This document shows, in pieces, positions 27,677-32,824 of a stretch of DNA of 64,000 bases. Source of the DNA: Terriglobia bacterium. GTDB lineage: Bacteria; Acidobacteriota; Terriglobia; 2-12-FULL-54-10. How positions within the stretch are numbered: the stretch's first letter is position 1; every line of letters starts with the position of its first letter. The position numbers and the translations under genes are program-made. The notes under the pieces are model-generated. The model saw only the letters and a program-made list of their open reading frames with translations, was not told the DNA's origin and ran no database searches. The stretch spans positions 64,001-128,000 of the forward strand of contig CAXVYR010000003.1 of the NCBI GenBank assembly GCA_963666975.2, written 5' to 3'.

Positions 27677-27729
27677 TTGACAGGGGAAGGCGGGGAAAGG
27701 GATAATGTTAATGCAAGTCATTTGCAATA
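27677..27729 (+). promoter_or_regulatory. sigma70 promoter with adjacent Fur-box-like operator
   Basis: TTGACA-18-GATAAT, then TAATGCAAGTCATTTGCAATA (inverted repeat TGCAA-N5-TTGCA) upstream of iron-uptake genes. Confidence 0.7.
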
Positions 27730-27874
27730 AGAAAGGCTGTTTTTGGCTCCTCCAAACGACACCCGCTGCTCGAAAGACAGGGGCACGAACCTCCGCCGTC
27801 TCGGTTGGTCCGAGATTTTCATTATGCGCTTCTTGAATGGATTGTAAGGGAAAAGGGCGTCAACGGGTCCATAT

Positions 27875-29140
27875 ATGGTGCAGGCACTGATCGTTACGCT
27901 CCGGGAAGGCGTAGAAGCCGCTCTGGTGATTGGGATTGCCGTGGCCTACCTGGGCAAATCCGGGAGGGGCCATTTAGTGAGAGTGGTCTACTTCGCTCTG
28001 GCTGCTGCCGTCGCTGCCAGCGTTGCAGGCGCAGTGTTGCTGCAACGTGTCAGCTTAAACCAGGAAGCCGTGGAGGGATGGCTTCTGCTGCTGGCGGCTT
28101 TTTTTGTGGCGACGGTGGTGTACTGGATGCAGCGCACGGCCCGCACGCTGCGGCACCGCATTGAGCAGCGTCTGGAGACTGTCTCCGCCCAGCACAAAAC
28201 CTCCGTTCTCGGTGTCTTTCTTTTTGTCTTTTTCATGGTGTTCCGCGAGGGGATGGAGACGATCCTAATTCTCTCGGCAGTATCCTGGAACTCAACCGAT
28301 TTGCTGAGCTTGATTGGAACCGGTGTCGGCCTGGCTCTGGCTGTCGTCTTTGGCATTGTTTTTGTGCGAGGCACCCTCCGGATGGACCTGCGGAAATTTT
28401 TCCGCGTGACCAGCATCATCCTGGCGTGCGTGGTGCTGCAATTGCTGGTGACCGGCCTGCACGAGCTTTCCGAAGCGCAGGTTCTGCCCAGCAGCCAGCG
28501 GGAGATGGCCGTGGTGGGGCCGATTGTAAGCAACAGCGTGTTCTTCTTCGTCGTCATCCTGGCCCTGGCCGCTCTCATGGTGCTGTTTGACTGGCGGTCC
28601 CGCCAGGCCGGTCTGTCCCCGGCCGGCGAGGTTTCCCGCTCCGAACTGCGCAAGCAGCAGTGGGGAGCACGGAAGGAAAAGTTTTGGGCGGTTGCCGTCT
28701 GCCTGAGCGCATTTGTTTTCGCGGTGCTCGTGACGGCTGAATTTATCTATGCCAAGAGTGCGACGGCGCTTTCCGAGGCCCGGCCCGTGACGGCGGAGCA
28801 GGGCGCGATTCTCATTCCCACAGAAAGCGTTTCCGACGGAAACCTCCATCGGTTTATTTACACGGCGGGCGATGTCACCACCCGCTTCATCGTCATTCGA
28901 GTCGGTTCCCGTTTGGCCACGGCCCTGGACGCCTGCGACATCTGCGGCGCGCAGGGCTACTACCAAAATGGGGCGACCATCATTTGCCGGAACTGCGCGG
29001 CGGAAATCTTCGGTCCCACCATTGGTTTGAGCGGCGGCTGCAACCCGGCGCCTCTGCCCTCGACGATTGAGGGAGCCATGTTGCGGATCGAGGCCGCTGA
29101 TCTGGAGTCCGGCGCGCGGTACTTTCACGCTCACCCGTGA
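27875..29140 (+). CDS. FTR1 iron permease fused to DUF2318 (Cys-rich, predicted Fe-S binding)
   Basis: Two RExxE motifs (LREGVE, FREGME); C-terminal CDIC..ICRNC..GGCNP. Confidence 0.85.
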   Translation: MVQALIVTLREGVEAALVIGIAVAYLGKSGRGHLVRVVYFALAAAVAASVAGAVLLQRVSLNQEAVEGWLLLLAAFFVATVVYWMQRTARTLRHRIEQRLETVSAQHKTSVLGVFLFVFFMVFREGMETILILSAVSWNSTDLLSLIGTGVGLALAVVFGIVFVRGTLRMDLRKFFRVTSIILACVVLQLLVTGLHELSEAQVLPSSQREMAVVGPIVSNSVFFFVVILALAALMVLFDWRSRQAGLSPAGEVSRSELRKQQWGARKEKFWAVAVCLSAFVFAVLVTAEFIYAKSATALSEARPVTAEQGAILIPTESVSDGNLHRFIYTAGDVTTRFIVIRVGSRLATALDACDICGAQGYYQNGATIICRNCAAEIFGPTIGLSGGCNPAPLPSTIEGAMLRIEAADLESGARYFHAHP

Positions 29141-29146
29141 GTTGCG

Positions 29147-30478: not shown

Positions 30479-30495
30479 ATGAACGGGAGAAATAA

Positions 30496-31701
30496 ATGAG
30501 CCGATGGGCGATTTTCTTTCGCGTCGTATCCCGGGCCTTCTGGTTTCGTCCCGGACGTGTTTCCGCCGCGCTGGCTTCCTTGACTGTGGGTGCCACCCTG
30601 GCCAGCGCCTTTCTGAATCTGTATTTCGAGTTGCCCCGAAAGATGACAGGAGAGTTCCGCAGCTTGGGAGCCAATCTGGTGCTGGCCCCCGCCGGCAACG
30701 CGCAGACCTTGCCGGAGAGCGTTTTTCACCAGGTTGGTGCTCAGCATCATCCGCCGGAGCTTTCCCGCCTGCCGTGGTTGTATGCGGTCGGCGAGGTGGG
30801 CAATGAAGACGTGATTTTCGGCGGCACGGATCTCGCCGGGCTGGCCGCCATGAATCCTTGGTGGCAAGTTATGGGGTGGCAAGTTCTGGGCGATACCGCA
30901 CGGAATGCTTCTCCTGGGAACCTGGAAGCTTTTCTGAAAACGGAAGCTTCTCTGCAAGGGCAGTCGCCGGAAAATCAAGACAGGTGGCTCCTGGCGGGAG
31001 AAAAAGCCGCCTCCCATTTCGGGTTGCACCCAGGAGAAACAGTCCAACTAGATTATGGCGAGAGAGCGCTGAAGCTGCCTTTACTGGCCGTTGTATCGAC
31101 GGGCGGAAGCGAAGACTCACAGCTCTTTCTGCCGCTCCCCGCTTTACAAGAGTTGACCGGCCAGCCGGAGCGGCTCAGTTTGATCGAGTTGCGGGCGCAG
31201 GGATCGGGCGAGCAGGTGGAGACCGTTCGGCAAAGCTTGGCGGCCCTGTTGCCGCAAACCGAGGTGCGCCCGCTCCGGCAGGTGGTGGAGTCTGAGGCCC
31301 TGGTGGTGATGAAGGTCCGCTGGCTGATGTTTGGGCTGACGGCCATCGTCCTCGGCATTGTGGTCCTCAGCGTGATGACTACGGTGAGCGGCTTGGTGCT
31401 CGACCGCCAGCGGGAGATTGGCGTCATGAAAGCGCTGGGCGGAAGCGACGGCATGATCTCGCTTTTGTTTGTCACCGAAACCGCCTGCTATGCATCGCTG
31501 GCCGCAGTGTTAGGTTACCTGGCCGGTTTCGGGCTGTCGCAGTGGGCCGCGCTGCGTATGTTTGGGTCGGTTTTGCAGTGGCGCTGGGACGTCCTGCCGG
31601 CGGTTGTGGCGGTGACGCTGGGGGTGGCCCTGATGGCAACGGCGTTCCCCATCCATCTGGTTCGGAAGGTGGACCCAGCCGTGAGCTTGAGAGGCAATTG
31701 A
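30496..31701 (+). CDS. ABC transporter permease (FtsX/MacB family)
   Basis: EFRSLGANL, DRQREIGVMKALG. Confidence 0.88.
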   Translation: MSRWAIFFRVVSRAFWFRPGRVSAALASLTVGATLASAFLNLYFELPRKMTGEFRSLGANLVLAPAGNAQTLPESVFHQVGAQHHPPELSRLPWLYAVGEVGNEDVIFGGTDLAGLAAMNPWWQVMGWQVLGDTARNASPGNLEAFLKTEASLQGQSPENQDRWLLAGEKAASHFGLHPGETVQLDYGERALKLPLLAVVSTGGSEDSQLFLPLPALQELTGQPERLSLIELRAQGSGEQVETVRQSLAALLPQTEVRPLRQVVESEALVVMKVRWLMFGLTAIVLGIVVLSVMTTVSGLVLDRQREIGVMKALGGSDGMISLLFVTETACYASLAAVLGYLAGFGLSQWAALRMFGSVLQWRWDVLPAVVAVTLGVALMATAFPIHLVRKVDPAVSLRGN

Positions 31702-31702
31702 G

Positions 31703-32824
31703 ATGACGGAAGCCAGGAATCATGCGGGCGCGGGCGAGAAGGCGGGCTCTCCGTTGATTGAGTTAGCGGGACTGCACAAAGGATACGGCCCGGCTGTGAT
31801 GGCGCTGGAGAATGTCAGCTTCACGGTCGGTCGCGGCGAGTGGATCGCAGTAATGGGTCCGTCGGGCTCGGGCAAGACGACGTTGCTGAACATCATCGGG
31901 TGTCTCGACTCCCCGACCTCAGGCCGGGTGGTGATTGAAGGAGAAGACGTCAGCCATTTCAGCAAACGGGATTTGGCTAATTTTCGTGCGGAAAAAGTAG
32001 GATTTGTTTTCCAGCAGTTTCATCTGATCCCCTATCTGACGGCGCTGGAGAATGTCCTGATGGCGCAGTATTTCCACAGCATGACGGACAAGCAGGAAGC
32101 CTTGCAGGTGCTCGGCCGCGTGGGCCTGTCGCACCGCGCGCATCATCTTCCTTCCGAGCTTTCCGGCGGGGAGCAGCAACGGGTGGCCATTGCGCGTGCC
32201 CTGGTCAACCAGCCGGTCCTTCTGCTGGCCGATGAGCCGACGGGGAACCTCGATGCGGAAAATGAGGAGATCGTCATGGGGTTGTTTCGGGAGCTGCACG
32301 CCGAGGGGCACAGCATTGTCATGGTCACGCATGACCCCGTGATCGGTTGCATGGCCGACCGCCGCATCGAGCTGGAGCATGGCCGCATCTCGACGACCAC
32401 CACGTTTTCCTTTGAGGAAGAAACCGGTTTCGATGAGGTGCTCGAACAGATCTGGGTGATGAAGGAAGAAAAGATCGAGCCGCGCCCCGAACTGCTCCAA
32501 TTCAACGGAGGCGGCAATTGGAAGGTTCTGCCCGTCATGAAGGAGATCGGGTTATTGCGGTCCGACGGGCTTGCTTTGGAGATGACGGACCAGGGGCGGG
32601 AGCGCGCCGCCAGCATCATCCGGCGTCACCGGCTCGCCGAGCGGCTTTTCACCGATGCCTTCGACATGCGGGACGACCAGCAGTTGGAATCAAACGCCTG
32701 CACCTTCGAGCATATCCTGAGCCCGGAGGTCACCGAGCGCATATGCACCTTTCTGCATCATCCCGCCCACTGTCCTCACGGAAGTCCCATTCCGCCGGGG
32801 GAGTGCTGCCCCGGCAGTGGTTGA
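31703..32824 (+). CDS. ABC ATPase fused to a DtxR/MntR-type metal-binding/dimerisation domain
   Basis: [25 protein letters not shown]-terminal RRHRLAERLF..ACTFEHILS..CPHGSPIP. Confidence 0.88.
   Translation: MTEARNHAGAGEKAGSPLIELAGLHKGYGPAVMALENVSFTVGRGEWIAVMGPSGSGKTTLLNIIGCLDSPTSGRVVIEGEDVSHFSKRDLANFRAEKVGFVFQQFHLIPYLTALENVLMAQYFHSMTDKQEALQVLGRVGLSHRAHHLPSELSGGEQQRVAIARALVNQPVLLLADEPTGNLDAENEEIVMGLFRELHAEGHSIVMVTHDPVIGCMADRRIELEHGRISTTTTFSFEEETGFDEVLEQIWVMKEEKIEPRPELLQFNGGGNWKVLPVMKEIGLLRSDGLALEMTDQGRERAASIIRRHRLAERLFTDAFDMRDDQQLESNACTFEHILSPEVTERICTFLHHPAHCPHGSPIPPGECCPGSG

What the first reader, a model, noticed from the sequence alone, without database searches (positions are those of the whole stretch)
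27677..32824. Compressed Fet-like iron-uptake operon: FTR1-DUF2318 fusion, no P19/FetP
Seen: a Fur-box-like operator, then four tightly spaced genes: FTR1 fused to Cys-rich DUF2318, two FtsX/MacB permeases and the ATPase-DtxR fusion. Known: Fet/P19 clusters of Campylobacter, Yersinia and E. coli encode FTR1-type FetM, periplasmic P19/FetP, a separate DUF2318 membrane protein, an ABC module and thioredoxin-like proteins. Here P19 and the thioredoxin-like genes are absent and trxB is divergent. Inference: the DUF2318 centre is wired directly to the permease as the iron redox partner, making this a distinct system variant.
Basis: partly seen in the sequence, partly recalled or inferred. Interest (0 to 1): 0.7.

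Follow-up and report, generated by a model that had tools for sequence, protein, structure and literature searches.

The report
Self-contained FTR1-Rieske iron uptake operon
This is a four-gene, probably iron-importing operon, common in soil Acidobacteria, whose permease carries its own periplasmic cysteine-rich domain and does without the P19 protein of the related system in gut pathogens.

Summary
A strong promoter and an operator precede four tightly spaced genes. These encode an FTR1 permease fused to an FtrD-like (DUF2318) domain, two FtsX/MacB-type permeases, and an ABC ATPase with a DtxR-like tail. The 98.9%-complete genome has no P19, EfeO or FeoB, and no second FTR1.

The arrangement is not a one-off. 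The same operon is present in all 66 Terriglobia-type loci that are long enough to judge.

Comparative tests sharpen the reading:
- DUF2318 proteins with both REXXE iron-permease motifs never sit beside P19 or a separate FTR1 (0 of 68 loci).
- Those without the motifs always do (48 of 48 loci).
- The membrane part of E. coli FetA is a homologue of the fused permease that lacks REXXE.
- The DUF2318 domain has a Rieske fold with five invariant cysteines.
- The operator is a 25-bp palindrome. Its only other strong copy in the genome lies in the promoter of the sole Fur-family gene.

Best reading: a Fur-family-repressed, P19-independent Fet-type iron importer. A redox role for the cysteine domain, the role of the ABC module, and the metal transported all remain inferred. 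I rate it a new variant of a known kind, of moderate to high interest.

The parts
27677..27706 (+). Sigma-70-type promoter: TTGACA, an 18-nt spacer, then GATAAT
   Evidence: 11 of 12 positions match. It is one of two promoter-like sites in 27300-33200, where shuffled sequence gives a mean of 1.2.
27707..27731 (.). 25-bp palindromic operator (consensus cTTATTGCAA-N5-TTGCAATAAg) directly after the -10 hexamer; probably the box of the genome's only Fur-family regulator
   Evidence: the palindrome is present upstream of the gene in all 12 orthologous regions examined; a weight matrix built from these sites finds only two strong sites in 4.23 Mb. They are this one (32.4 bits) and a perfect copy (36.4 bits) in the promoter of the sole Fur-family gene. 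The next best site scores 17.4; the Fur orthologues of 5 further genomes carry the box upstream of their own genes.
27875..29140 (+). Gene 1 (421 aa): FTR1-type permease (TM1-7), a linker, TM8 and a periplasmic FtrD-like/DUF2318 domain
   Evidence: AlphaFold2 model with pLDDT 91.4 and pTM 0.83: eight long helices plus a beta domain. The K/R-rich loops 1-2, 3-4, 5-6 and 7-8 place the N-terminus and the C-terminal domain outside the cytoplasm.
27902..27916 (+). REXXE motif 1 (REGVE, aa 10-14, TM1)
   Evidence: Both motifs are intact in 58 of 70 family representatives.
28244..28258 (+). REXXE motif 2 (REGME, aa 124-128, TM4)
28781..29125 (+). Rieske-fold periplasmic domain (aa 303-417) carrying the motif C354-x2-C357-x13-C371-x2-C374-x14-C389
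   Evidence: All five Cys are invariant in 70 of 70 representatives. The motif is present in 141 of 141 complete domains. Fold matches: Z 8.0-9.0, rmsd about 3 A, 92-97 residues aligned to Rieske ferredoxins. In the unbiased search the top hit has Z 8.6 and ranks 1-40 are Rieske-type.
29147..30478 (+). Gene 2 (443 aa): MacB-type permease, orthologue of FetB
   Evidence: Pfam FtsX plus MacB_PCD. 37% identity to E. coli pECSF1 FetB over the full length, E 7e-93; best hits in both directions.
30496..31701 (+). Gene 3 (401 aa): second FtsX-type permease, orthologue of FetC
   Evidence: Pfam FtsX. 31% identity to FetC, E 6e-51.
31703..32389 (+). Gene 4, N-terminal part (aa 1-229): ABC ATPase, orthologue of FetD
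   Evidence: ABC_tran 5.2e-37. 56% identity to FetD, E 1.5e-85. Nearest NCBIfam models are LolD, FtsE and MacB, all below their cut-offs.
32390..32824 (+). Gene 4, C-terminal part (aa 230-373): DtxR/IdeR-like metal-binding and dimerisation domain with a shortened winged-helix region
   Evidence: Fe_dep_repr_C 2.4e-25. Aligns to IdeR/DtxR residues 13-136, E 4e-16. The extension is present in 64 of 66 loci of the intact type and 0 of 42 loci of the P19 type.

Best explanation
The operon encodes a self-contained, P19-independent member of the Fet type of FTR1 iron importers.

Proposed mechanism:
- Gene 1 is the channel. It has seven FTR1 helices with both REXXE motifs. An eighth helix holds a Rieske-fold domain with five invariant cysteines on the periplasmic side, above the permease.
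- I take that domain to be the periplasmic metal or redox centre. In other FTR1 systems this job is done by separate proteins (P19/FetP, EfeO, cupredoxin FtrB, Fet3p).
- Genes 2-4 are orthologues of FetBCD, a MacB-type ABC machine that is needed for Fet function in Campylobacter.
- The ATPase carries a DtxR-like metal-sensing domain. This would throttle the machine when cytoplasmic Fe(II) rises.
- Transcription starts at a near-consensus promoter. It is repressed by the genome's only Fur-family protein, which binds the 25-bp palindrome over the transcription start.

Shown here:
- the gene and domain architecture, and the integrity of the motifs;
- the absence of P19, EfeO and Feo from the genome;
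- conservation of the operon;
- the strict either/or between intact REXXE and the presence of P19 plus FetM;
- the Rieske fold (in predicted models);
- the sharing of the operator between this operon and the fur promoter.

Inferred:
- iron as the substrate;
- redox or metal-binding chemistry in the cysteine domain;
- coupling of the ABC module to the permease;
- feedback through the DtxR-like domain;
- Fur as the protein that binds the palindrome.
For: 1. Architecture and motifs.

2. No alternative partner or route in a 98.88%-complete genome: P19 0 hits, EfeO 0, FeoB_C 0, only one FTR1 and only one PF10080.

3. Orthology to the tested Fet system: FetB 37%, FetC 31% and FetD 56% identity, with best hits in both directions. 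[quoted passage not shown]

4. Conservation: of 66 related loci with at least 4.8 kb downstream, 66 have both FtsX genes. 64 have the ATPase by one-HSP tblastn; the other two have it as split HSPs. 64 have the DtxR-like extension.

5. Complementarity (three loci checked with Pfam):
- 68 Terriglobia-type loci with at least 3 kb upstream: 61 have two REXXE motifs on the DUF2318 ORF. The other 7 are the same gene with a frame change. P19 is in 0 of 68, and none has a separate FTR1 gene.
- 48 metagenome loci related to REXXE-less members: REXXE in 0 of 48, P19 in 48 of 48, a separate two-REXXE FTR1 in 48 of 48.
- In a sample of 301 Acidobacteriota genomes, PF10080 occurs in 41 and P19 in 3. Only one genome has both. 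In that genome the DUF2318 protein has no FTR1 Pfam hit, and the ATPase is 240 aa with ABC_tran as its only domain.

6. Homology of FetA's membrane part to the fused permease: with the N-terminal parts alone, hhalign gives probability 96.2 and E 2.5e-9 over 146 columns. The reversed control gives probability 1.5. One tree split (SH-aLRT 99) separates 58 intact from 17 REXXE-less proteins.

7. Rieske fold.

8. Regulation.

9. Short metatranscriptome contigs with 0-1 mismatches lie on all four genes. This is weak evidence.
Against: - No experiment exists on this form. Iron-responsive expression is not shown. The RNA-library contigs could be DNA carry-over, and they come from one study.
- The Fur-family protein cannot be typed. 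Its best NCBIfam scores are to PerR (73 bits) and Fur (70 bits), both far below their cut-offs. The metal or signal it senses is therefore open.
- In most Terriglobales loci the operon has a different AT-rich palindrome, whose regulator I could not identify.
- DUF2318 is not iron-specific. Short forms lie beside a YHS/HMBD P-type ATPase (L124). DUF2318 proteins were also inferred to belong to a copper (CsoR) regulon in gut Firmicutes (PMC4938975, passages read).
- A periplasmic Fe-S cluster on the C-terminus of a Sec-inserted polytopic protein is hard to assemble. A twin-arginine pair before TM8 occurs in only 41 of 70 members, and TM8 is not weakly hydrophobic.
- The operon encodes no electron donor or acceptor. 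The P19-type clusters have FMN_bind/ApbE or thioredoxin-like genes (PMC8238504, passages read).
- The two locus sets compared in point 5 were collected with different queries and are phylogenetically clustered. The either/or pattern is one evolutionary contrast and not 116 independent trials.
Confidence: 0.6

Rival explanations
1. The overall system is the same iron importer, but the cysteine domain is not a redox centre. It is a mononuclear metal-binding site or structural knuckle (rubredoxin- or zinc-ribbon-like within a Rieske fold). It captures Fe(II) or Fe(III) in the periplasm and hands it to the pore, so it replaces P19 as a binder and not as an oxidant or reductant.
For: - The ligands are CxxC...CxxC and not the CxH...CxxH of true Rieske centres (the motif agrees with PMC6083913).
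- There is no conserved Tat signal to export a pre-assembled cluster: a twin-arginine pair before TM8 occurs in 41 of 70 members.
- The operon has no electron-transfer partner.
- P19 is absent exactly where the domain is fused to a working permease.
Against: - The same domain, with the same five cysteines, is also present in P19-containing clusters (the motif is in 141 of 141 domains). It therefore does not simply stand in for P19.
- Those clusters carry FMN-binding or thioredoxin-like redox proteins.
- The whole domain, not only the knuckles, superposes on [2Fe-2S] Rieske ferredoxins.
Confidence: 0.22
2. The operon handles another metal (manganese, copper or zinc), or is a metal-stress system and not iron uptake. 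On this reading the Fur-family regulator is a Mur-, Zur- or PerR-type protein.
For: - The Fur-family protein scores as well against PerR as against Fur models, and both scores are below their cut-offs.
- Its regulon seems to be only itself, a downstream porin-like gene and this operon.
- DUF2318 with FtsX occurs beside a YHS/HMBD P-type ATPase and in an inferred CsoR copper regulon (PMC4938975).
- DtxR-family sensors include the Mn-specific MntR. The genome's stand-alone DtxR scores for both DtxR and MntR models.
Against: - The permease part keeps both REXXE motifs of the FTR1 family. All characterised members I know of carry iron (my own knowledge; PMC11966278, passages read).
- The ABC module is orthologous to FetBCD, whose deletion phenotypes respond to iron supply (PMC10783030).
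- It is the genome's only Fur-family gene, and the genome has no Feo.
Confidence: 0.1
3. One reading: a classical FetMP-FetABCDEF cluster was compressed by fusing FetM to FetA and losing P19 and the thioredoxins.
For: The FTR1 part is most similar to FetM among the E. coli Fet proteins (25% identity over 214 aa, E 4e-14). The C-terminal domain is most similar to FetA (40% identity, E 5e-26).
Against: - FetA already has a collinear, homologous eight-helix membrane part: probability 96.2 for TM5-TM8, and collinear but unsupported for TM1-TM4. No fusion with FetM is therefore needed.
- 12 of 70 family representatives align over their full length yet lack REXXE.
- Intact and REXXE-less proteins are separated by a single split in the tree. 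REXXE is shared with all other FTR1 proteins, so loss is the simpler direction.
- The tree is unrooted and is the quick version, so the direction is not proven.
Confidence: 0.12

Closest known systems
FetMP-FetABCDEF (P19) iron-uptake cluster of Campylobacter jejuni, uropathogenic E. coli and Yersinia (PMC6083913 and PMC10783030, passages read)
   Same: - An FTR1 permease with REXXE motifs.
- A membrane-anchored periplasmic DUF2318 domain with CxxC-x13-CxxC-x14/15-C.
- Two FtsX/MacB-type permeases and an ABC ATPase in the same order, with best hits in both directions.
- A metal-regulator operator at the promoter.
   Different: - No P19/FetP anywhere in the genome.
- No separate FetM. The permease function sits on the DUF2318 protein itself.
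- No YHS domain on this protein (6 of 70 relatives have one).
- No thioredoxin-like or FMN-binding genes in the operon.
- The ATPase carries a DtxR-like domain (64 of 66 loci here against 0 of 42 P19-type loci).
FetA (Cj1660 / CJJ81176_1651; the E. coli pECSF1 'Fe-S-containing protein')
   Same: - Eight transmembrane helices followed by a periplasmic DUF2318 domain.
- Homologous over TM5-TM8, the linker and the domain.
- Followed by FetBCD.
   Different: - FetA has no REXXE motifs and gives no Pfam FTR1 hit even at E<=10.
- It always sits beside P19 and a true FTR1 in the loci examined (48 of 48).
- The window's protein keeps both motifs and stands alone.
FtrABCD (Bordetella, Brucella) and EfeUOB
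   Same: An FTR1-family permease that depends on periplasmic metal or redox partners. A membrane-bound iron-sulfur-type protein (FtrD) is part of the Ftr system; that Pfam's name 'FtrD-like' for PF10080 refers to this protein is my reading of the name.
   Different: No FtrA/P19 and no EfeO. No FtrB-type cupredoxin in the operon; one small cupredoxin-like ORF lies about 640 kb away. The ABC module is not part of Ftr or Efe. Whether FtrD itself belongs to PF10080 was not tested here.
Rieske [2Fe-2S] ferredoxins and Rieske subunits of bc1/b6f complexes
   Same: The fold of the whole C-terminal domain matches: Z 8.6, rmsd 3.2 A, 99 of 109 residues for 1vm9_A, and the first 40 rows of an unbiased search are Rieske-type. 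As in bc1 Rieske proteins, the domain is periplasmic and anchored by one helix.
   Different: The ligand set is Cys4 (plus a fifth invariant Cys) and not Cys2His2. There is no detectable sequence similarity. Cluster content is unknown. There is no conserved twin-arginine signal.
ABC importers whose ATPase carries a C-terminal regulatory domain (MetN, ModC, MalK); recalled, not searched here
   Same: An extra ligand-binding, dimerising domain sits on the C-terminus of the nucleotide-binding subunit, which suggests feedback inhibition by the cytoplasmic product.
   Different: Here the domain is DtxR/IdeR-like, and the transporter is MacB-type, not a classical importer. No such case is known to me.

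Membership tests
FTR1 / oxidase-dependent iron transporter family (Pfam PF03239) | Match to the family profile above the curated cut-off | tested here: met
   114.5 bits against a cut-off of 25.3, aa 1-202.
FTR1 / oxidase-dependent iron transporter family (Pfam PF03239) | Two REXXE motifs, in TM1 and TM4 | tested here: met
   REGVE at aa 10-14 and REGME at aa 124-128. Both are intact in 58 of 70 relatives.
FTR1 / oxidase-dependent iron transporter family (Pfam PF03239) | Seven helices with the N-terminus outside | tested here: met
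   Model helices and the positive-inside pattern. This is a prediction only.
FTR1 / oxidase-dependent iron transporter family (Pfam PF03239) | A separate periplasmic ferroxidase or iron-binding partner (Fet3p, P19, EfeO, FtrB) | tested here: not met
   P19 0 hits and EfeO 0 hits. The only cupredoxin-like ORF is distant and has no operator.
EfeU (NCBIfam NF041756, equivalog) | Score above the equivalog cut-off | tested here: not met
   144 bits against a cut-off of 255.
FetMP-FetABCDEF cluster | P19/FetP encoded beside the permease | tested here: not met
FetMP-FetABCDEF cluster | DUF2318 membrane protein followed by two FtsX permeases and an ABC ATPase | tested here: met
FetMP-FetABCDEF cluster | Thioredoxin-like (FetE/F) or FMN-binding genes in the cluster | tested here: not met
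   None lies between 27875 and 32824, and the flanking genes are trxB (cytoplasmic), nuoB-like and gcvT.
FetMP-FetABCDEF cluster | Iron/Fur-dependent expression | not testable with these tools
   The operator is shared with the fur promoter. No expression data under iron limitation are available.
FtrD-like / DUF2318 (PF10080) | Profile match and the CxxC-x13-CxxC-x14/15-C motif | tested here: met
   94.5 bits against a cut-off of 26.3. The motif is at C354...C389.
Rieske [2Fe-2S] domain | Rieske fold | tested here: met
   (predicted model).
Rieske [2Fe-2S] domain | CxH...CxxH cluster ligands | tested here: not met
   CDIC...CRNC; no histidine at the ligand positions of the motif.
Rieske [2Fe-2S] domain | Binds a [2Fe-2S] cluster | not testable with these tools
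   Needs spectroscopy.
MacB-type (FtsX-family) ABC transporter | FtsX four-helix domain with a large periplasmic domain, and a LolD/FtsE/MacB-like ATPase | tested here: met
   Gene 2 has FtsX plus MacB_PCD. Gene 3 has FtsX only at E<=0.01. The ATPase is nearest to the LolD, FtsE and MacB models, below their cut-offs.
DtxR/IdeR metalloregulators | Metal-binding and dimerisation domain | tested here: met
   PF02742, 88.8 bits against a cut-off of 27.
DtxR/IdeR metalloregulators | N-terminal winged-helix DNA-binding domain (PF01325) | tested here: inconclusive
   Not reported by Pfam at E<=0.01. However, aa 248-365 align to IdeR residues 13-136 with deletions in the helix-turn-helix.
Fur regulon / Fur box | Operator overlapping the promoter, shared with other targets of the Fur-family protein | tested here: met
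Fur regulon / Fur box | Binding by Fur in response to iron | not testable with these tools
   Needs EMSA, footprinting or ChIP.

The most novel reading that the evidence does not exclude
The FTR1-Rieske-fold fusion together with FetBCD is the original, self-sufficient form of the Fet system. It would be an FTR1 channel that is not driven by a ferroxidase. It would be gated or energised mechanically by a MacB-type ABC machine, whose ATPase is switched off directly by cytoplasmic iron through a fused DtxR-like sensor. On this reading, FetA of Campylobacter, E. coli and Yersinia is a dead permease kept as a scaffold for the cysteine domain. P19 plus FetM are a later add-on.
Probability: 0.2. Interest if true: 0.8.

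Novelty: new variant of a known kind. Interest (0 to 1): 0.6.

Why it matters
The Fet/P19 system is an iron-uptake and virulence-associated cluster of several gut pathogens. The roles of FetA and FetBCD in it are unexplained (PMC10783030). The P19-less form found here separates the parts cleanly:
- The DUF2318 domain plus the MacB-type ABC module is the constant core.
- P19 travels with FetM.
- FetA looks like a permease that has lost its iron-binding motifs.

This gives direct, testable predictions for the pathogen system, and it offers a simpler four-gene model in which to test them.

It also assigns a fold (Rieske-like, all-cysteine) to a domain of unknown function. It points to a possible new kind of transporter feedback, a DtxR-like sensor on an ABC ATPase.

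For soil microbiology, it identifies what may be the main dedicated iron importer of many Terriglobia. In this genome it is the only FTR1-, Feo-, Efe- or P19-type route found, and the only operon besides fur that carries the operator.

Tried and rejected
1. Leader RNA element. The leader between operator and start codon is about 145 nt long. Rfam at E<=1 on 27400-27950 gave no match. A terminator-like hairpin at 27798-27816 is not conserved in the two closest relatives, judged by eye.

2. Dual Sec-Tat insertion of TM8 plus the cysteine domain, as in actinobacterial Rieske proteins (PMC5449189, passages read). The paper's main text does not contain the terms 'FTR1' or 'iron permease'. RR lies within 12 residues of TM8 in 41 of 70 members and not in the window's protein. 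TM8 is as hydrophobic as the other helices. The idea is not supported and not excluded.

3. Weaker operator hits in the genome (17.4 bits and below). They lie beside a radical-SAM gene, an HTH gene and histidine kinases. I treat them as noise; a 442-kb shuffle reached 12.9 bits.

4. Comparison with the rhizobial Mur box. Two calls (97, 98) did not yield its sequence, so no comparison was made.

5. Regulator of the second operator type (TGAAATTGAAATTCATTTTCA). At up to 3 mismatches it occurs once per genome in two genomes. In a third it occurs three times, one of them upstream of a second Fur paralogue. The paralogue's promoter lacks it in the other two genomes. Unresolved.

6. Complex prediction (FtsX1 + FtsX2 + TM8-domain). 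There is no result.

7. Foldseek/VIA matches of the membrane part to MFS transporters (Z about 10). These are below the level the tool regards as meaningful for helical bundles.

8. PDB sequence search with the family profile gave no significant hit to any FTR1- or DUF2318-type chain.

9. Plasmid collection. No record covers 80% or more of the protein (0 of 893).

10. FeoB_N hits in the genome are weak (best E 1e-15). I read them as generic GTPases. FeoB_C gave none.

11. A first attempt to scan genome contigs with the 70-row alignment failed because no stretch was conserved enough. It was repeated with 20 rows.

13. RNA-library contigs leave 27300-27687 uncovered. This is no evidence for a transcript start.

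Full report
WHAT IS THERE

The window holds four same-strand ORFs: 27875-29140 (421 aa), 29147-30478 (443 aa), 30496-31701 (401 aa) and 31703-32824 (373 aa). The gaps between them are 6, 17 and 1 nt.

Pfam assigns the following:
- Gene 1: FTR1 (aa 1-202, 114.5 bits) plus FtrD-like PF10080, the former DUF2318 (aa 319-417, 94.5 bits).
- Gene 2: FtsX plus MacB_PCD.
- Gene 3: FtsX.
- Gene 4: ABC_tran plus Fe_dep_repr_C.

The divergent gene at 26530-27462(-) is thioredoxin-disulfide reductase (TIGR01292, above its cut-off).

A near-consensus promoter, TTGACA-18 nt-GATAAT, lies at 27677-27706 (11 of 12 positions). A 25-bp palindrome follows directly at 27707-27731. Rfam finds nothing in the leader.

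GENE 1 IN DETAIL

The protein has REGVE at aa 10-14 and REGME at aa 124-128. These are the two REXXE motifs that define FTR1 permeases (the definition is my own knowledge).

The AlphaFold2 model, built on 70 diverse relatives, has pLDDT 91.4 and pTM 0.83. It shows eight long helices followed by a beta-rich domain at aa 303-406. Loops 1-2, 3-4, 5-6 and 7-8 hold 2, 6, 2 and 8 Lys/Arg, against 0-1 in the other loops. This puts the N-terminus and the C-terminal domain on the periplasmic side. That is the side proposed for DUF2318 in Campylobacter FetA (PMC6083913, passages read).

The domain carries C354-x2-C357-x13-C371-x2-C374-x14-C389, which is exactly the motif reported in that paper. All five cysteines are invariant in 70 of 70 family representatives. 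The motif is present in 141 of 141 complete domains from all loci collected.

FOLD OF THE CYSTEINE DOMAIN

- Foldseek against the PDB ranks Rieske-type ferredoxins first (TM-score on the target 0.47-0.63).
- VIA-align gives Z 8.0-9.0, rmsd about 3 A, and 92-97 aligned residues out of about 105.
- The domain folded alone (pLDDT 91.7) was searched without Foldseek against 48,161 representative chains. The top hit has Z 8.6 (1vm9_A, rmsd 3.2 A, 99 of 109 residues).
- The first 40 rows of that search are Rieske ferredoxins, Rieske oxygenases, NirD-type small subunits, or complexes that contain a Rieske subunit. One entry has an uninformative title (7yls_B). The first clearly unrelated row is rank 41 at Z 3.6.
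- There is no sequence-level match to any PDB chain.

The domain is thus Rieske-like in fold. It has cysteines in its two CxxC knuckles and no histidine of the Rieske CxH...CxxH motif, so I do not file it as a Rieske protein. The papers I read do not mention this fold. The main text of PMC10783030 contains neither 'Rieske', 'AlphaFold', 'rubredoxin', 'FTR1' nor 'MacB'.

WHAT IS MISSING FROM THE GENOME

The window lies in an assembly of 4 contigs that is 98.88% complete. Family searches over all six frames gave:
- P19/PF10634: none, even at E<=1.
- EfeO/PF09375: none.
- FeoB_C: none. The FeoB_N hits are weak (best E 1e-15), and I read them as generic GTPases.
- FTR1: exactly one.
- PF10080: exactly one.
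- One small cupredoxin-like ORF, about 640 kb away, without the operator.

HOW COMMON THE ARRANGEMENT IS

- The protein collection holds 6055 proteins with E<=1e-5 among 8000 scored candidates. The best 120 all carry both Pfam domains and come mostly from Acidobacteria/Terriglobia MAGs.
- Among cluster representatives at 50% identity, 4673 match at E<=0.001 and 221 at E<=1e-30.
The best 80 are Terriglobia-type MAGs plus one Verrucomicrobiia MAG.
- Of 41 relatives' genomes (own included), 15 have a match spanning both parts. One of these, G010, is split into two pieces. Five more match only the FTR1 part.
- In a sample of 301 Acidobacteriota genomes at least 90% complete, PF10080 occurs in 41.
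- Of the 80 loci, 66 have at least 4.8 kb downstream. All 66 have both FtsX genes. 64 have the ATPase by a one-HSP tblastn rule, and the other two have it as split HSPs. 61 have the DtxR-like extension by that rule, or 64 by phmmer.
- trxB is divergent only in the closest relatives: L016 and L018, and 1 of the 80 loci, L039. I regard it as incidental.

RELATION TO THE KNOWN FET SYSTEM

The annotated E. coli plasmid pECSF1 carries FTR1 (FetM), an iron transporter (FetP/P19), an 'Fe-S-containing protein' (FetA), two permeases, an ATPase and two thioredoxin-like genes.

The window's genes 2, 3 and 4 are best hits in both directions of FetB (37% identity, E 7e-93), FetC (31%, E 6e-51) and FetD (56%, E 1.5e-85).

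By BLASTP, gene 1 matches FetA only in aa 293-417 (40% identity). It matches FetM in aa 1-204 (25% identity). FetA has no Pfam FTR1 hit even at E<=10.

Profile comparison changes this picture:
- The 70-member family profile aligns to FetA over 303 columns.
- The C-terminal domain was then removed from both sides. This left family residues 1-295 against 29 enterobacterial FetA proteins, residues 1-275. hhalign still gives probability 96.2 and E 2.5e-9 over 146 columns, matching our residues 134-283 to FetA 110-259. The reversed control gives probability 1.5.
- With a permissive extension the alignment stays collinear back to residue 1. FetA's 'TTLQ' falls where the family has 'TLREGxE'. This part has no statistical support of its own.
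- Within the family, 58 of 70 representatives have both REXXE motifs. The 12 most divergent have neither, yet they align over their full length. Two of these are named from Thermincola and Ca. Frackibacter. An intact one is named from Chloroflexota.
- A quick maximum-likelihood tree of 75 proteins separates the 58 intact from the 17 REXXE-less proteins (12 plus 5 enterobacterial FetA) by one split with SH-aLRT 99. The careful search did not finish and the tree is unrooted.

THE COMPARATIVE TEST

I collected 80 metagenome loci with the alignment of the 12 REXXE-less members.

| Measure | Genome loci (Terriglobia-type) | Metagenome loci (REXXE-less type) |
|---|---|---|
| Loci with at least 3 kb upstream | 68 | 48 |
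| Two REXXE motifs on the DUF2318 ORF | 61 (the other 7 are the same gene with a frame change) | 0 |
| P19 in the locus | 0 | 48 |
| Separate two-REXXE FTR1 gene | 0 | 48 |
| Loci with at least 4.8 kb downstream | 66 | 42 |
| DtxR-like extension of the ATPase | 64 | 0 |

Pfam confirmed three of the metagenome loci as FTR1, P19, FtrD-like, FtsX, FtsX, ABC and FMN_bind, with ApbE following in one of them (L128). These match the flavinylation-associated P19 clusters described in PMC8238504 (passages read).

In the 301-genome phylum sample, P19 occurs in 3 genomes. Only one of these (G050) also has PF10080. In that genome the DUF2318 protein lacks an FTR1 Pfam hit. The ATPase is 240 aa and its only domain is ABC_tran.

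The caveat is that the two sets were gathered with different queries and are phylogenetically clustered. This is one sharp evolutionary contrast and not many independent ones.

Even so, the pattern is what is expected under three conditions: the fused FTR1 part is the working channel, P19 serves FetM, and the DUF2318 domain plus FetBCD is the common core.

The core also occurs in short forms of 172-177 aa, with one helix plus the domain. These are followed by FtsX, and in L123 also by an ABC ATPase. One lies beside a porin and one beside a YHS/HMBD P-type ATPase.

REGULATION

All 12 orthologous upstream regions taken from relatives carry a palindrome of the form cTTATTGCAA-N5-TTGCAATAAg. In the 11 regions where a -10-like hexamer can be seen by eye it lies right after that hexamer. 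In L026 it lies upstream of the likely promoter.

A weight matrix from 11 of these sites was scanned over the 4.23-Mb genome. It gives two outstanding hits. One is the operon (32.4 bits), which was in the training set. The other is a perfect palindrome at C4:552700 (36.4 bits), which was not. The next best hit scores 17.4, and a 442-kb shuffle reached 12.9.

The second site lies in a promoter-like context upstream of the genome's only Fur-family gene (PF01475: one hit; Pfam 1.5e-23). That gene is followed by a 573-aa secreted protein with no Pfam family. Language-model features place it among porins (score 0.98), which is only a lead.

Orthologues of this Fur-family protein (46-48% identity) in five Terriglobales genomes all have TTGCAA-N5-TTGCAA-like boxes just upstream of their own genes. 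The box therefore travels with this regulator in 6 of 6 genomes. Autoregulation plus control of the operon is the simplest reading.

What the regulator senses is open. Its NCBIfam scores to PerR and Fur models are similar and far below their cut-offs.

In most Terriglobales loci the operon instead has an AT-rich palindrome...TTGAAATTGAAATTCATTTTCAA.... Only 9 of 80 loci have the exact TTGCAA-N5-TTGCAA core. At up to 3 mismatches this second box occurs once per genome in two genomes. In a third it occurs three times, one of them upstream of a second Fur paralogue. Its regulator is unresolved.

THE ATPASE TAIL

Residues 230-373 align to IdeR/DtxR residues 13-136 (E 4e-16). The helix-turn-helix region has deletions, and the metal-binding and dimerisation part is well conserved. 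Pfam reports only the latter.

By eye, the equivalents of DtxR H79, E83, C102, E105 and H106 are present (residue numbers recalled).

I read the tail as a cytoplasmic metal sensor on the ATPase. Whether it can still bind DNA is open. A stand-alone DtxR/MntR-type regulator lies elsewhere, beside a ZIP-like gene.

EXPRESSION

Two metatranscriptome runs of one study hold short contigs (151-248 nt, 0-4 mismatches) on all four genes. One spans the leader and the start of gene 1 (27760-28007). Another spans the junction of genes 1 and 2 (29133-29309). DNA carry-over cannot be excluded, and contigs cannot show starts, strand or level. This is weak support for expression and says nothing about iron.

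MECHANISM

I commit to this reading (confidence 0.6 for the whole):
- It is an iron importer in which the FTR1 part is the channel (about 0.75).
- The Rieske-fold cysteine domain is the periplasmic metal or redox centre serving the channel (redox about 0.45; simple metal capture about 0.25).
- The FetBCD-type MacB-like module is an obligatory partner acting from the cytoplasm on periplasmic or membrane parts. MacB-type transporters work by mechanotransmission (my own knowledge).
- The DtxR-like tail gives fast feedback.
- The Fur-family protein gives transcriptional repression.

Evidence against this reading, in brief:
- No experiment exists on this form.
- The regulator cannot be typed.
- DUF2318 proteins were inferred to be members of a copper (CsoR) regulon in gut Firmicutes (PMC4938975, passages read), and short forms lie beside a copper-type ATPase.
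- There is no conserved twin-arginine signal that would explain export of a pre-assembled cluster.
- The operon encodes no electron partner.

NOVELTY

Searches of the paper library:
- 'DUF2318': 5 papers.
- FTR1/P19/Cj1660: 28 papers.
- FtrD/FtrABCD/FTR1/polyferredoxin: 8 papers.
- Acidobacteria/FTR1/iron permease/Fur box: 393 papers, 12 listed.
- PF10080/FtrD-like/IPR018758: 88 papers, 10 listed.

None of the listings or passages I read describes the following:
- a P19-less operon built on an FTR1-DUF2318 fusion;
- the homology of FetA to FTR1;
- the Rieske fold of DUF2318;
- a DtxR-like tail on FetD.

The Acidobacteria review (PMC7661733) only notes that FTR1-family genes exist in the phylum.

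The fusion proteins are, however, routinely annotated in databases ('DUF2318 domain-containing protein', 'Fe-S-containing protein', 'FTR1 family protein'). Supplementary tables that I did not read may list them. I therefore rate this as a new variant of a known kind, with interest 0.6.

Noticed in passing
outside the window: G000:C4:552700-555190 (loci L030, L033): The genome's only Fur-family gene has a perfect copy of the 25-bp palindrome in its promoter, with further half-sites after it. It is followed by a 573-aa secreted protein with no Pfam or NCBIfam family, which resembles Porin_O_P-type porins by language-model features. This could be the co-regulated outer-membrane entry route.
   Followed up: partly
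window 32390-32824 and loci L038-L117 against L126-L205: The DtxR-like tail on the ABC ATPase occurs only with the intact FTR1-DUF2318 form (64 of 66 loci) and never with the P19 form (0 of 42 loci). Two intact-type loci (L055, L116) show the ATPase without the tail.
   Followed up: partly
L123 (G099:C2:438000-452000) and L124 (G086:C9:77000-91000): There are short forms of 172-177 aa with one helix plus the FtrD-like domain. In L123 the short form is followed by one FtsX gene, an ABC ATPase and a porin, and it is preceded by a TRASH-domain protein. In L124 it is followed by one FtsX gene and lies next to a YHS/HMBD P-type ATPase. The domain-plus-ABC core is therefore not tied to FTR1 or to iron alone.
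   Followed up: partly
L040-L117, 35-60 nt before the start codon in most loci (up to about 190 nt in a few): Most Terriglobales orthologous operons carry a different, AT-rich palindrome (TTGAAATTGAAATTCATTTTCAA). In two genomes it is unique to this operon at up to 3 mismatches. Its regulator is unknown. The fused DtxR-like domain or a second Fur paralogue are candidates.
   Followed up: partly
window 26194-27210 (+): A 338-aa ORF overlaps trxB on the opposite strand. Only its first 40 residues match FeS_assembly_P (4e-9). The real gene is probably a short DUF59-type gene ending before trxB, or the frame is broken.
   Followed up: no
window 33081-33605 (+): A lone NuoB-type gene (NF005012, 254 bits) lies just downstream of the operon, next to gcvT. 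No other nuo genes are adjacent. The same neighbour is seen in relatives L017 and L021.
   Followed up: no
outside the window: G000:C4:630625-632883 (locus L037): A stand-alone DtxR/MntR-type regulator (HTH + dimerisation + FeoA-like domain) lies downstream of a ZIP-like transporter gene. This is probably a separate Mn/Fe/Zn uptake unit. It has no copy of the palindrome.
   Followed up: no
L064, L074, L075, L089, L100, L102, L111: In 7 of the 80 genome loci the fusion gene is broken by a frame change within the same 1.25-kb stretch. These may be assembly errors or real pseudogenes.
   Followed up: partly
family linker, aa 254-262 of gene 1 (window about 28634-28660): A conserved cytoplasmic motif, (N)PAE-R-R/K-K, lies before TM8. 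R259 is kept in 66 of 70 relatives. E. coli FetA has the equivalent Arg at the aligned position, in the motif PIAHR. Its function is unknown.
   Followed up: no
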